A stretch of DNA of 64,000 nt from Eledone cirrhosa (taxonomy: Eukaryota), in the NCBI GenBank assembly GCA_964016885.1, contig OZ024743.1:101680001-101744000 (forward strand). The letters are read 5' to 3'. Both the position numbers and the translations under genes were made by a program. The notes below the pieces were generated by a model. That model had not been told where the DNA came from. It saw only the letters and a program-made list of their open reading frames with translations, and ran no database searches. Shown here in pieces: positions 16,521-41,075 of this stretch (position 1 is its first letter; each line of letters opens with the position of its first letter).

Positions 16521-16718
16521 TGCGGTGCCGAGACAGGGGAGACCAAACAGGCGATGTATAGGAAGAAGCAGCAGAATAGGTATAGAGGAAGGTAAATACC
16601 CAATCACGATATATATATATTAAAATAACAGATCAAAGTTTAAGCAAAGAATCGCTGCTTTCACTGCTTTATCCTTATCGAGCCCTCTTTGGATTTTAGT
16701 CTTCAAATTTATTATTAT

Positions 16719-18600: not shown

Positions 18601-18688
18601 ATATATATATATATATTTATTTATTTAAATAACAGATTTTATTTATGCCGTCGGGGTCATACTTTTTCCTATATATATATACATATAT

Positions 18689-19337: not shown

Positions 19338-19343
<6 letters not shown>

Positions 19344-19662
19344 TAAAATAACAGATTAAAGTTTAAGCAAAGAATCGGTGCTTTGGTTAAATTTGCCTTT
19401 CATCCTTACGGAGTCGATAAAATAAAGTACCAGTAATGTACTGTGTAATTGCTGGCCTTGTGCCTAAGGGCGGTGGATTGGCAGTATCGGTAGAGGGTCG
19501 GACGCCATGCTTTGACGCATAGAGTTACGGCCCTTATCATTCTGAGTTCAAATCCCGCCGAGGTTAACTTTGCCTTTCATCCTTACGGGGTCGATAAAAT
19601 AAAGTACCAGTAATGTACTGGTTAATTGCTGGCCTTGTGCCAAAAGTAGAAACAATTATTAT

Positions 19663-19665
<3 letters not shown>
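19338..19665. mobile_element. Family N PLE arm (minus) fused to two tandem Meta SINEs (plus)
   Basis: TAAAATAACAGATTAAAGTTTAAGC, also at 16621 and 46331, followed by Meta domains near 19393 and 19567. Confidence 0.7.
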
Positions 19666-34855: not shown

Positions 34856-34920
34856 TACTCCCTATATATATATATATATATAGAAATTACATGAATCAAA
34901 GTTCAGTTTAAATCATTTAT

Positions 34921-34969
34921 TTGCTTACAATTGTTTTCTCCAAACCGAAGTTTGGATTCTTCGGAGCAA
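34921..34969 (-). ncRNA. Hammerhead motif (family E), GAAA mutated
   Basis: ttgct CCGAAGA a tccaaac TTCG gtttgga gAAAA CAATTG TA agcaa. Confidence 0.55.
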
Positions 34970-35227
34970 CTATTTAGTGATTTTTTACATACTTGACCTC
35001 CTTTTCAACACAAGAGACATATAAAAACATATGTATATATTGAACCACAGTGGGTTGACATCCATCATAATAATATAGCATGGCAATTTACATACAAAGG
35101 TTACAGTCATATTAAAGGACAAAATTAAAGTTAAAATTAAAATTAAAATAAAAATAAAAATAAAACATTGGCAGTTTATGAAGATAAAGCAAGAGGAAAG
35201 TTTAGAGTAGTCAGTGTATGAAACAGA

Positions 35228-37207
35228 TATTAATATGGAAGGCTATAATATAGTGTCCAATCTAGGACTCCTGAGACATACACAACCATATACCCCAAAC
35301 CCCCATAGTTTCTCTCTGAAGGACCATAAGGAGGACTTCATTAGCAACCCCTCGATTAGACTCATCTGCCCTTCCAAGTCTGACATTGGCCTTATTAGTA
35401 AGAAAATTTTAGATAAAATCATCCCACAGATTAAACACAAGATATACCTTAAACAATGGGGAAATACGGGTGAAGTGATTGAATGGTTCGAAGATATCAA
35501 GGATAACAAGGATAAAAAATGTATTCAATTTGATATCAATTCTTACTACACCTCTATTTCCCCTATCCTATTAAATAAGGCACTTATCATGGCCATGGAC
35601 AATAGTGACCTGACTAGACCCCAGATTGATGTCATACTTGCGGCCCGTAAAACACTAATCACCTTTGAAGACCAATTATGGACCCGCAAAGATACGCAAA
35701 ACAACTTCGACATAACCATGGGGTCTAGTGACTCGGCGCAGGTCACTGATTTAGTCGGCCTATATTTACTTAACGAAATCCATAAGGACCTTCCATACCT
35801 CAACGGTGGTTTGTACCGCGATGATGCACTTTTACTTATAGATTATAAAAAAATCAATATAGAAAGAACTAGAAAACTATTGCACAAGACATTCAAAAAC
35901 TATAACCTTAGTATTACCATGGACAAAAACACTAAAAACGTTAACTTCCTAGACGCCACCCTCTACCTAGACTCAATGATATATGCACCTTTCCACAAAC
36001 CTAATGAAAAACTCATTTACGTAGATACCAAGTCTATCCACCCTAAATCTATATTAAACTCTATCTCTAAGGGAGTATCTAATAGAATCTCTAATCTATC
36101 CTATGACGTAAACATATTTAACAAAAACTCACAATATTATAATCAGGCATTAGCTAGATCAGGCCATAATATAGAGATCGAGTTCCTATCTACAAAAACA
36201 CATAGCTACAACATTATTTCGCACATGTCCATGAGAAAATTTAGTAATAAGAATAGCAACCACACACACACTAATAGGGATGATACCAACAAAAGTAACC
36301 CACACCACAGAAATTACCATAGTACCATAAAAGGAAACAACTCACCAGACATAAAAAACAAAAATAGAAGAAGAAATAATACATTTTTCAACCCTCCTTT
36401 CAATCTAAACGTCTCTACCAACCTACCTAGGGCTTCCTTCTCACTACTAGATAAAAACTTCCTATCCGGCCACAAGTACCATAGCCTTTTAAACAAAAAC
36501 ACTATTAAAATTTCCTACTCTACTACGCCTAACATAGCATACCACATAGCTAGTAGCAATAAAAGAAAAATTAATTCTTACTTCCAACAAACTAAATCAC
36601 AACAGACGATACACCTTCAAAATAACATTATAACAACTAACCCTAATATCAATAGAAATAATAGTAATAGCACGAGTGTAAACAATAACGCCGGGAACGA
36701 CAACCCACATAACCATAACCCTATAGCTACCATCAAGACTTCTACACAACATAATACCGGCAGTCTAACACCCAGAATAATTGTAACTGTAGATCAAATA
36801 GAACCTGCCCTTTAGATAAAAATGCTTAATCAAGGATATCATATACTCATGCACAGTCACAACTATCAACTCATCTGAAACCTATATAGGCTCTACTTCT
36901 AACTGCTTCAAAACTAGATACAATTCGCACCTCCACTCTTTCAAAAAACAGTCTAGCCAACTCCACTTCACTATCTAGCTACATACACTATCTAAAAACT
37001 AAAAATAAACCATATACACTTAAATGGGAAGTGATAGGTAATGCGACATCGTACGAACCACCTAATAAATTTTGTAACCTCTGTCTACTAGAGACCCATA
37101 CTATCATCTTCTCTAACCATAACCTCCTTAATAAAAAATCAGAAGTGTTCGCGTCTTGCCAACACCGCTTCCGACACTCTTTCCAAAACTTTAAACCCAA
37201 TATATAA
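35228..37207 (+). pseudogene. 5'-truncated PLE RT plus GIY-YIG ORF, frameshifted after ~36770
   Basis: LKDHKE..RLICPSKSDIG, FDINSYYTSI, MGSSDSAQVTDLVG, GLYRDD, FNPPF, CNCRSNRTCPL, IIY..YIGST, CNLCLLE, LLNKKSE..CQH. Confidence 0.9.
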
Positions 37208-38702
37208 CAGTGTCAGACTTGAACCCGACACAACCTCTAGCAACTAGCATCAGGGGCACACCTTACACCTCATCTCCACACCCATTAATCCACTTTAACG
37301 CAAATAGTGACACCCTCATAGTACCTTTTACCCTAGAGATATCCACATGTACTTCTACTTTTGGTATATTGGCCTTGAGTTACTTGGACTACATTGCACT
37401 AATATATATTTAATGTAAACTGTAGGCACTGAATTGGTTGTGCTAACATTGTCCTGTGCATGGAGTGCCACCATAGGATAGATACAAGATTAAGTAATTA
37501 ATTTATTAAAAGGGCTATATATTCTATATGCTGAGTACAATGAATTATGTACAGGTGATAAATGAGTTATGAGTATATGTATGGCTTGATGACCAGATTA
37601 GTGTCTTTGTATGAGAGAACTGATCTCTGGACCACCCTGGTGATATTTAACTTTGCCATGCATTCAGACATACAATGACCCATAGCTTACCTGGAGTCAT
37701 ATATAGTAATAAGACCATGCCAGGCTCTGCGGGTGGACTACACTTACATAGATCATTGATTTGGAGGTCTGACTCTTCTTGCAGAATGTTCTGTTGTGGC
37801 ACTCCATGATAGAAGGTAATCATCCTGATATGAACACCTTTAGTACTTCTTGATGGACTACACTGTAATTTATAGATAAGATACTTAAATTTAGAAATTG
37901 TTTATAACCTTATATGACAGGGACTCATTTGAAACACCATTTATGTACTTTAGGATAATAAATTTAACTATGAAAATCAGCTAGTTACCTCCCCTTACGC
38001 ATTAACTCCCCTTACGCATTAACTGCCCTTAATCACACACACACTTCCGGAATATAATACAATGTCATCTCTCACAACAAAAACAACCTGATCTATGAAT
38101 CGAAATAAGGAACGACAAGCTATGATTTATAACATGATTCACCAGGCACCCAATGTTGAATCATCGTGGATTGTATGATGGACATATAGCCTATAAATTG
38201 CGTTTCCTGGATTGTGTGAGTGATGGTGGGTGCGAGGACAGTGGTGCTGTTTTGCTTCTCATTTATAATATTTTTGATATTTTTGGTGTTTCTCTACAAA
38301 CGGGCTTATATATCGTATAGGTGTGTGTGAAAAATGCTTTAACAATACAGCCCCGATGATGCTATTGATTGCCTGCTTTAACTGCTTGTTTTACACGTAA
38401 CAATCTGCCGCACTATAATCCTGTATAAATAAGACACGCGTGCATACCACACGTGAGACTGTTTCATACACTGACTACTCTAAACTTTCCTCTTGCTTTA
38501 TCTTCATAAACTACCATAGTTATATTTTAATAATAATTTTAACTTTAATTTTGTCCTTTAATATGACTGTAACCTTTGTATGTAAATTGCCATGCTATAT
38601 TATTATGATGGATGTCAACCCACTGTGGGTCAATATATACATGTTTTTATATGTCTCTTGTGTTGAAAAGGAGGTCAAGTATGTAAAAAAATCACTAAAT
38701 AG

Positions 38703-38751
38703 TTGCTCCGAAGAAACCAAAGCTCGGTTTGGAGGAAACAATCGTAAGCAA
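38703..38751 (+). ncRNA. Hammerhead motif (family E)
   Basis: ttgct CCGAAGA ..stem II.. GAAA CAATCG TA agcaa; 5-bp stem I. Confidence 0.6.
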
Positions 38752-38949
38752 ATAAATGATTTAAACTGAACTTTGATTCATGTAATTTCTATATAACTGC
38801 TCTGTAAAACAACTGATGTTATTACATTGAGCTATTTATCTTACTGGTAATAAGATAGTAATGAATTACTGTCTTTCACTATTTAGAGTTTAAAATATAT
38901 ATAACTATAAAAGGTTTTATTATATACATAACCATAAATAGTATCCTTA

Positions 38950-38987
<38 letters not shown>

Positions 38988-39762: not shown

Positions 39763-40080
39763 ATTGGTTATGCACGAGTGCATTAATGTTTTCCAGGACA
39801 CAGTGTTATGTGCCGTGTAGTGGAATGTCAGCTTACAACAGAGTGGTGCTCAACGAAATGCAGAAAAAAGGTGTATATTCCAGTTTAGCTATATTCCGGG
39901 GCGTGTATAAAGAATTAAAAAGAACAGAAAGATGCAGTAAAAGAGATTTATTCGGTTCTTACGTACGTTTCAATAGACATCAATTTGCCTAGATCTCGCA
40001 AATTGATGTCTATTGAAACGTACGTAAGAACCGAATAAATCTCTTTTACTGCATCTTTCTGTTCTTTTTAATTCTTTATA
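39760..40080. mobile_element. Perfect fold-back PLE-type insertion
   Basis: 83-bp arms 39906-39988 and 39998-40080, 9-nt loop; GAAA CGTACG TA half-hammerhead; tail 39760-39905. Confidence 0.8.
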
Positions 40081-40143
40081 TATATATATACATATATATA
40101 TGTGTATATATATATATATATGTATATGTATATATATATACAT

Positions 40144-40188
<45 letters not shown>

Positions 40189-40191
40189 CAT

Positions 40192-40264
<73 letters not shown>

Positions 40265-40267
40265 CAT

Positions 40268-40316
<49 letters not shown>

Positions 40317-40319
40317 CAT

Positions 40320-40350
<31 letters not shown>

Positions 40351-40353
40351 CAT

Positions 40354-40442
<89 letters not shown>

Positions 40443-40471
40443 TATATATATACACATATACATATGTACAT

Positions 40472-40514
<43 letters not shown>

Positions 40515-40533
40515 TATATATATACACATATAC

Positions 40534-40597
<64 letters not shown>
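40081..40597. repeat. (TA)n-CATATACATG compound microsatellite
   Basis: Direct inspection. Confidence 0.95.
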
Positions 40598-40600
<3 letters not shown>

Positions 40601-40649
40601 AATAAGTTAACAAGGACGAAAGGTTACTCCTTCATTACGTTTACTGGTT

Positions 40650-40734
40650 GGTGACGCGCGTTTCGCCACTGATCAGCTCAAGATTCGATCTGTATCGATC
40701 TGCCCCCACTCTGGAATTCGTGGCTCGTCAGCCC
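40650..40734 (-). ncRNA. Hammerhead with enlarged stem II domain (family F)
   Basis: ggg CTGACGA GCCAC (~48 nt) GTGGC GAAA CGCGCG TC acc. Confidence 0.7.
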
Positions 40735-40824
40735 CCTTGTAATGTTAATAGAAAAATGAATACATGGTGTATGATAAAGTACACTTCAACAACATGTGTA
40801 CTTGTCTTTCCCACACGAATTCGG

Positions 40825-40879
40825 ACTGCCTGAAGAGATCACAACCAATGATGGCTGTCACCGAAATATATATAGCAGT
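40825..40879 (+). ncRNA. Minimal type I hammerhead (family G)
   Basis: actgc CTGAAGA gatcacaacca atga tggctgtcacc GAAA TATATA TA gcagt. Confidence 0.7.
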
Positions 40880-41026
40880 ATATCTATAATTTGTAATAAA
40901 CGAAGCCAAATTTTACATATTTGACTTAATTATTTTACATTACTCCGGAGTAAGCAAACCAGCCTGTGTACTTCGTCGAGTGCTCCATCTGCATACTGAG
41001 GTGTCGGTAAACAACCAACATATACT

Positions 41027-41075
<49 letters not shown>

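What the first reader, a model, noticed from the sequence alone, without database searches (positions are those of the whole stretch)
40598..41030. Chimeric two-armed insertions: left and right arms come from different ribozyme families
Seen: one block between (TA)n tracts holds a minus-strand family F hammerhead (40650-40734) back to back with an unrelated plus-strand family G hammerhead (40825-40879). The same minus-left/plus-right polarity recurs at 18615-18672 (N+A), 54868-56180 (H+L) and 19338-19665 (N+Meta SINE). Known: PLE insertions often carry an inverted 5' part. Inference: both ends of a break in (TA)n are primed independently on different RNAs and the cDNAs are then joined. This would shuffle unrelated RNAs, possibly including SINEs.
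Basis: partly seen in the sequence, partly recalled or inferred. Interest (0 to 1): 0.75.

Follow-up and report, generated by a model that had tools for sequence, protein, structure and literature searches.

The report
Fused halves of two Penelope insertions
This block joins the ribozyme-bearing ends of two unrelated Penelope-type jumping genes back to back, and it is likely a scar left when two separate neighbouring insertions lost the DNA between them rather than one insertion copied from two RNAs at once.

Summary
The junction is real: a minus arm of family F (40598-40780) meets a plus arm of unrelated family G (40781-41029) with no TA between, and each carries a decayed minimal hammerhead. 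The minus-left/plus-right polarity cannot decide the mechanism, because nearly every two-armed insert here has it. Same-family pairs carry the Penelope 'tail' on exactly one arm (125 of 131), are age-matched and share rare variants. Cross-family pairs are about a tenth as common, ignore the tail rule (12 of 27), and 10 of 20 fetched ones keep scraps of extra arms. In the unbiased sample their arms are not age-matched (weak test, n=12-13). Best reading (0.6): fusion of two separate insertions by deletion. One event on two RNAs stays open (0.3): arm ages in the motif-selected set do not differ significantly, and LINE-1 has a published analogue. No empty or pre-fusion allele could be seen. Earlier notes of this scan already reported the same-family footprint in this genome; none found reported this cross-family test.

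The parts
40076..40597 (.). Left (TA)n-rich tract, interrupted by CA/TG units; target of the F arm
   Evidence: sequence
40598..40780 (-). Family F arm: 5'-cut 3' end of a Penelope-type element, ending at the short end (no tail)
   Evidence: long copies carry an upstream peptide whose homologues have weak GIY-YIG matches
40646..40738 (-). F minimal type I hammerhead motif (core 40731-40653, long stem II); first stem I pair broken in this copy
   Evidence: motif rules recalled; activity not tested
40780..40781 (.). Head-to-head F/G junction: no TA, no exact microhomology, an imperfect 4-nt match two bases before it
40781..41029 (+). Family G arm: 5'-cut 3' end of a second Penelope-type family, ending at the long end (with tail)
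   Evidence: long G copies L032 and L054 carry the same kind of upstream peptide
40825..40879 (+). G minimal type I hammerhead motif with palindromic stem III; two stem II pairs broken in this copy
   Evidence: activity not tested
40938..41029 (+). G tail, between the family's short end (40937) and long end
   Evidence: other copies run into TA behind 40937 (table 7)
41030..41073 (.). Right (TA)n tract; target of the G arm
   Evidence: sequence
18616..18669 (.).
   Evidence: read by eye; not annotated by the pipeline
19340..19665 (.).
54869..56180 (.).

Best explanation
The block holds the outer arms of two unrelated Penelope-type families, likely left from two separate neighbouring insertions after a deletion removed what lay between them. 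Shown: these families end at two fixed positions, and normal same-family inserts pair one short end with one tailed end. Inferred: the normal insert is made when the enzyme nicks (TA)n and extends both DNA ends on one source RNA. Inferred for the fusion: inserts pile up in the same TA tracts; a break in the tract between two of them (a new nick by the element's endonuclease, or TA fragility) is resected into the neighbouring inverted repeat, which folds back and is clipped near its centre; the end is then joined, often at 2-8 shared bases, to the newer cDNA or to the other insert's far arm. Outer arms always point outwards, which gives minus-left/plus-right. Here F would be the older resident and G the later arrival.
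For: Tail rule: same-family 125 of 131 complementary (14 blocks with an untypable end left out) against cross-family 4 of 10 (sample; one three-part block and 2 untypable left out) and 8 of 17 (pattern set; 3 of 20 left out); pooled 12 of 27, Fisher P 1.6e-9, P 0.70 against one half. Clean two-part fusions alone give 7 of 18 (my count). Extra-arm pieces in 10 of 20: 5 near a centre, 4 holding 3' or tail parts (L307, L310, L311, L312), 1 nested (L301) (by eye). Direct same-direction joints with a 3'-cut partner: 1 of 31 and 5 of 43, against 9 of 15 direct head-to-head. Age: same-family arms correlate (rho 0.62, n=144), cross-family do not (rho 0.005, n=13); mean gap 5.5 points against 3.6 for a same-age null (P 0.037) and 4.25 for independent insertions (P 0.12), n=12. 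This block: 11 of 183 private changes in F against 3 of 249 in G (P 0.010). Substrate is common: 44 adjacent different-family pairs in 1.66 Mb. Hairpin clipping of resected ends is proposed for LINE-1 (10.1101/2024.12.14.628481, passages); TA repeats break and are repaired at microhomologies (PMC13645644, passages).
Against: No pre-fusion or empty allele was seen. In the 18 pattern-set pairs measured, arm divergences do not differ significantly (chi-square 21.7, 16 df, P 0.15; rho 0.32), and L304 and L315 have zero mismatches on both arms; exact motifs favour young arms, so this set is biased and weak. The percentile version of the age test gave P 0.06 (n=9), and all differences in this block (13 of 183 against 9 of 249) give P 0.12. 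About 30% of rare variants are shared between sibling arms (58 of 195), so divergence partly reflects the source copy, not age. This block is itself short end plus tailed end, as one event predicts, and has no extra-arm piece and no exact microhomology. Centre scraps can also come from template jumping. In the sample head-to-head arms outnumber same-direction ones (19 against 8 arms), though my 3'-anchored library under-detects 3'-cut partners.
Confidence: 0.6

Rival explanations
1. One break, two RNAs: two enzyme-RNA complexes, or one dimer holding two RNAs, prime the two ends of a nick in (TA)n on RNAs of different families, and the cDNAs are joined, sometimes after a template jump.
For: An anole Penelope protein cleaves and extends both strands and is predicted to be a dimer (PMC11167929). 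Antisense RNA/LINE-1 chimeras are attributed to twin priming (PMC13174262). Young/young clean pairs exist (L315, L317) and ages do not differ significantly in the pattern set. This block is short end plus tailed end. Separate complexes need not obey the tail rule.
Against: Pairs such as F 86%/c17 98% and B 85%/c47 98% to nearest copies; P 0.037 against a same-age null; 4 of 20 fusions keep tail or 3' parts of an inner arm; 3'-cut same-direction joints need deletion anyway; no tRNA arm of that kind among 6 tRNA calls in my sample.
Confidence: 0.25
2. Two concurrent insertions at two different TA tracts cross-join, so that one arm of each survives and the DNA between is deleted or rearranged, as with LINE-1 bridges.
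For: Explains independent tails. Bridges of two distinct L1s joined at their 5' breakpoints with two tails are described in tumours (10.1101/2024.08.27.596794); two ends extended on different mRNAs (10.1101/2024.12.14.628481).
Against: Predicts matched ages, which the unbiased sample does not show. Needs two events close in time and place; those reports are somatic.
Confidence: 0.08
3. F and G are parts of one composite element that was amplified as such.
For: None found.
Against: No second F/G copy among the 40 of 3373 candidates scored (ranking favoured G, so weak); 29 other F and 29 other G loci continue differently.
Confidence: 0.03
4. Assembly join across TA tracts.
For: No listed contig bridges the junction (coverage had holes).
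Against: The junction is inside non-repetitive arm sequence, not at a tract; similar joints occur on many contigs; one sample holds 87 nt of this F arm exactly.
Confidence: 0.04

Closest known systems
Canonical Penelope-like element insertions with an inverted 5'-truncated copy and a one-sided tail (PMC8557442, PMC3846280; passages seen)
   Same: Head-to-head arms, tail on one end, hammerhead near the 3' end, (TA)n targets, GIY-YIG-like peptide upstream in long copies.
   Different: Here the two arms come from unrelated families and the tail rule is lost; tails are about 40-140 nt rather than 30-40 nt. The passages seen describe no cross-family inverted pairs.
Antisense RNA/LINE-1 chimeras attributed to twin priming (PMC13174262; passages seen)
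   Same: Two unrelated RNA-derived pieces in opposite orientation; one-event two-RNA model proposed.
   Different: Different enzyme; there contemporaneous arrival is judged from multi-species alignments and target-site duplications, neither of which was available here, and my indirect tests lean to separate insertions.
L1 bridges of two synchronous insertions and L1-linked deletions by end remodelling (10.1101/2024.08.27.596794; 10.1101/2024.12.14.628481; passages seen)
   Same: Two distinct elements joined at 5' breakpoints with both 3' ends outward; deletion by resection and hairpin cleavage.
   Different: Somatic LINE-1 events with known pre-event genomes; here fixed or inherited Penelope-type scars in TA tracts.
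Animal non-LTR retrozymes (10.64898/2026.07.22.740005; part 1 of 5 read)
   Same: Minimal type I hammerheads linked to Penelope-like elements.
   Different: F and G extend upstream into coding sequence and this block is not a tandem array.

Membership tests
Penelope-like elements (C-terminal GIY-YIG type): families F and G | GIY-YIG endonuclease at the ORF's C-terminal end | tested here: inconclusive
   No Pfam match for two F peptides. 578 homologues; 3 of 14 scanned have GIY-YIG matches below the cut-off (E 0.001-0.03) just before the matched stretch. Long G copies match the same peptide.
Penelope-like elements (C-terminal GIY-YIG type): families F and G | Penelope-type reverse transcriptase in the same ORF; clade by phylogeny | not tested
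   No full-length F or G copy was fetched.
Penelope-like elements (C-terminal GIY-YIG type): families F and G | Inverted 5'-truncated copy and a tail at one end only | tested here: met
   F and G loci; two end modes; 125 of 131 over all typed families.
Penelope-like elements (C-terminal GIY-YIG type): families F and G | Type I hammerhead motif in the terminal repeat | tested here: met
   cores intact, stems partly broken in this copy.
Minimal type I hammerhead ribozyme | Self-cleavage | not testable with these tools
   Single-strand folding did not give the hammerhead fold for either arm.
One-event two-RNA (twin-primed) chimera | Opposite orientation, 3' ends outward, direct joint | tested here: met
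One-event two-RNA (twin-primed) chimera | Both arms present or absent together at orthologous sites | tested here: inconclusive
   No relatives held; read and contig layings showed neither the junction nor another allele.
One-event two-RNA (twin-primed) chimera | Arms of equal age | tested here: inconclusive
   Against: (P 0.037 and 0.010). Neutral or for: (P 0.06, 0.15).
One-event two-RNA (twin-primed) chimera | Target-site duplication around the whole block | not testable with these tools
   Both flanks are (TA)n.
Normal coordinated two-arm Penelope insertion | One short end plus one tailed end | tested here: not met
   Cross-family class 12 of 27 against 125 of 131; this single block does fit.
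Non-LTR retrozyme | Non-coding tandem monomers each with a hammerhead | tested here: not met
   F and G long copies reach coding sequence; the block is not tandem.

The most novel reading that the evidence does not exclude
Penelope enzymes prime the two ends of one (TA)n break on RNAs of different families often enough to make a good share of these joints, this block included. The genome would then hold thousands of cross-family twin-priming products, and the lost tail rule would show that the one-tail footprint is set by a single RNA holding both priming sites.
Probability: 0.3. Interest if true: 0.6.

Novelty: new variant of a known kind. Interest (0 to 1): 0.35.

Why it matters
How Penelope elements make their inverted arms and one-sided tail is called unresolved in PMC8557442. 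The contrast found here is a usable genomic test: same-family arms are coordinated and share rare variants, while cross-family arms are not coordinated. That argues the normal product comes from one source RNA and that cross-family joints are mostly rearrangement scars, a measure of deletion at TA tracts packed with inverted repeats. If a share are one-event products, they would be the Penelope counterpart of two-RNA twin priming in LINE-1. The single block has no sign of function, and no chimera was seen to have spread.

Tried and rejected
Rfam: the 150 of 242 rows shown were microsatellite-driven; no hammerhead row. Repeat finder: swamped by TA. Strict hammerhead scan: only 55979-56040 passed. 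Searches with young A and c17 arms returned nothing (common words are skipped). The 20 young N loci were cut too short: most showed only more N sequence, so they were not counted. Sequencing runs: no RNA holder listed. Layings: no listed piece bridges the junction and no other allele appeared; low-depth contigs with holes, so no evidence either way. The 78 arms with an unidentified 5' neighbour stay unresolved; several are same-family arms that my library missed. Polarity alone rejected as a test. Simple loss of a TA tract at its edge rejected as the main cause: 30 of 31 A+/N+ neighbours keep TA. Fold-back of one cDNA cannot give cross-family arms. tRNA scan of the sample: 6 calls, none a tRNA arm facing a Penelope arm. 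Literature searches listed no paper on cross-family inverted Penelope arms; the library lacks most subscription papers and no supplements were read.

Full report
Setting. The window is G000:C4:101680001-101744000 in a 3.0 Gb animal genome. Besides the window I examined 160 evenly spaced 10 kb stretches (1.66 Mb with the window), about 90 distinct 3 kb loci picked by similarity and 40 short stretches. The organism was not determined.

Observation. The block sits between two TA tracts. The left 183 nt belong to a large family F and the right 250 nt to a large family G. The other F and G loci continue past the junction with their own sequence, so the joint at 40780/40781 is cross-family and direct. 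Hammerhead cores lie on the minus strand in F and the plus strand in G, so both 3' ends face a TA tract. Both motifs are damaged in this copy. Long copies of both families run upstream into a peptide whose homologues show weak GIY-YIG matches, so they are most simply the 3' ends of protein-coding Penelope-type elements; the reverse transcriptase was not examined. No second copy of this joint was among the 40 of 3373 candidates scored.

What normal inserts look like. Clustering TA-adjacent ends gave about 50 families. Many end at two fixed positions, a short end and a tailed end 40-140 nt further on. Of 452 typed arms in the sample, 231 were in same-family inverted pairs, 114 had TA or a simple repeat at the 5' side, 78 an unidentified neighbour, 19 a head-to-head foreign neighbour, 8 a same-direction foreign neighbour and 2 a same-family tandem. 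Related families were grouped as one, which is conservative. Same-family pairs had one short and one tailed end in 125 of 131 typed blocks; 14 with an untypable end were left out. Their arms correlate in divergence (rho 0.62, n=144) and share 58 of 195 rare variants where 6.4 were expected, which points to one source template or to later conversion. SINE and RTE-type ends were never two-armed (0 of 55). The inverted copy, the one-sided tail and TA targeting are known (PMC8557442, passages; PMC3846280, passages), and both-strand extension with two internal start sites was shown in vitro (PMC11167929, parts 1-2 of 4). Earlier notes of this scan describe the same footprint in this genome.

Why polarity is no test. 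Left arms are minus and right arms plus in every two-armed insert, so any loss of the middle between two neighbours leaves that polarity. Such neighbours are common: 44 adjacent pairs of different families in the sample, median spacer 35 nt over all 57 pairs, against about a dozen direct cross-family joints.

Tests on cross-family joints. (a) Tails. In the sample 4 of 10 were complementary (L007 left out as three-part, 2 untypable). Pattern searches for A/N, A/B and N/B gave 43 hits; I picked by eye the 20 without a TA tract between the arms, and 8 of 17 typable ones were complementary. Pooled, 12 of 27 differs from 125 of 131 (P 1.6e-9) and fits one half (P 0.70). So these are not the normal coordinated event; two separate complexes at one break would still fit. 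(b) Extra arms. 10 of the 20 keep more pieces: short centre scraps in L302, L303, L304, L306 and L318, 3' or tail parts of an inner arm in L307, L310, L311 and L312, and one arm nested in another insert in L301. Several joints fall at 2-8 shared bases. Centre scraps fit deletion or template jumping; tail parts fit deletion better. (c) Orientation. For A and N, 9 of 15 head-to-head hits were direct, and direct same-direction joints with a 3'-cut partner were 1 of 31 and 5 of 43 (read from the first 80 letters; counts are lower bounds). Deletion joints therefore occur at a similar rate. (d) Age. In the sample cross-family arms do not correlate (rho 0.005, n=13); the mean gap of 5.5 points exceeds a same-age null with independent sources (3.6, P 0.037) and is compatible with independent insertions (4.25, P 0.12) (n=12). 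The percentile version gave P 0.06. In the pattern set ages did not differ significantly (P 0.15), which counts against my reading, though exact motifs select young arms. In this block F has 11 of 183 private changes and G 3 of 249 (P 0.010); all differences give P 0.12. (e) Alleles. Not resolved.

Mechanism. Shown: the joint, the two end modes, the tail rule and its loss, extra-arm pieces. Inferred: two separate insertions in one TA region, a break between them, resection, fold-back and clipping of the inverted repeat near its centre, and end joining. Whether the break comes with the second insertion or later is open; in 5 of 8 comparable cases the partner that kept an extra piece looked older, in 2 equal and in 1 younger (by eye, weak). 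Parallels are hairpin clipping at L1 breaks (10.1101/2024.12.14.628481, passages) and microhomology repair of TA-repeat breaks (PMC13645644, passages). I give this 0.6, one break with two RNAs 0.25 and cross-joined concurrent events 0.08.

Known and new. Two-RNA twin priming is already proposed for LINE-1 (PMC13174262, passages; 10.1101/2024.08.27.596794, passages). Nine searches listed nothing on cross-family inverted Penelope arms. Look-ups in this scan's notes found no report of this test, but one unchecked note argues for two-RNA capture of a pre-tRNA. Verdict: a real structure and a new variant of a known insertion footprint, probably secondary in origin; interest 0.35.

Noticed in passing
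window 34883-38953: About 4 kb element with inverted ends (34883-35226 against 38459-38789, 92%), a 534 aa open frame at 35211-36815 and a separate frame at 36890-37204 resembling the F peptide; no Pfam match, many relatives in the sample.
   Followed up: partly
window 61554-63980: Frames with weak RVT_1 (E 9e-4) and GIY-YIG (E 0.005) matches and a 99.5% inverted repeat (61810-62024 against 63438-63652); probably a young Penelope-type copy running off the window.
   Followed up: partly
sample-wide, same-family pairs: Sibling arms share 58 of 195 rare variants (6.4 expected); all shared in 10 of 74 blocks, none in 44. One source template or arm-to-arm conversion.
   Followed up: partly
L301 (G000:C2:366546691-366546961): An N arm sits in the centre of an otherwise normal A minus/plus pair.
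   Followed up: partly
L302, L303, L304, L306: Four independent A/N joints fall at or beside the same shared 5-mer near both families' turning points.
   Followed up: partly
window 16620-16664, 19340-19384, 46331-46447 (family N): The hammerhead-like core of family N reads CAGAAGA, with A at the usually fixed U.
   Followed up: no
L100:2730-3430, L205:5597-5823: Family c35, whose sequence looks like an RTE-type LINE end (recalled), appears two-armed, unlike other RTE-type ends.
   Followed up: no
window 39910-40076, 46517-47099, 51354-51601: Long palindromes (98%, 87%, 95%) not assigned to a family.
   Followed up: no
window 57355-57820 and 58135-58600: 99.8% identical tandem copies of an RTE-like 3' end, with a third copy at 2276-2833.
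   Followed up: no
window 19655-19665: The last bases of the SINE block also match the tailed end of family N, so the block may be an N insert overwritten by SINEs (inference).
   Followed up: no
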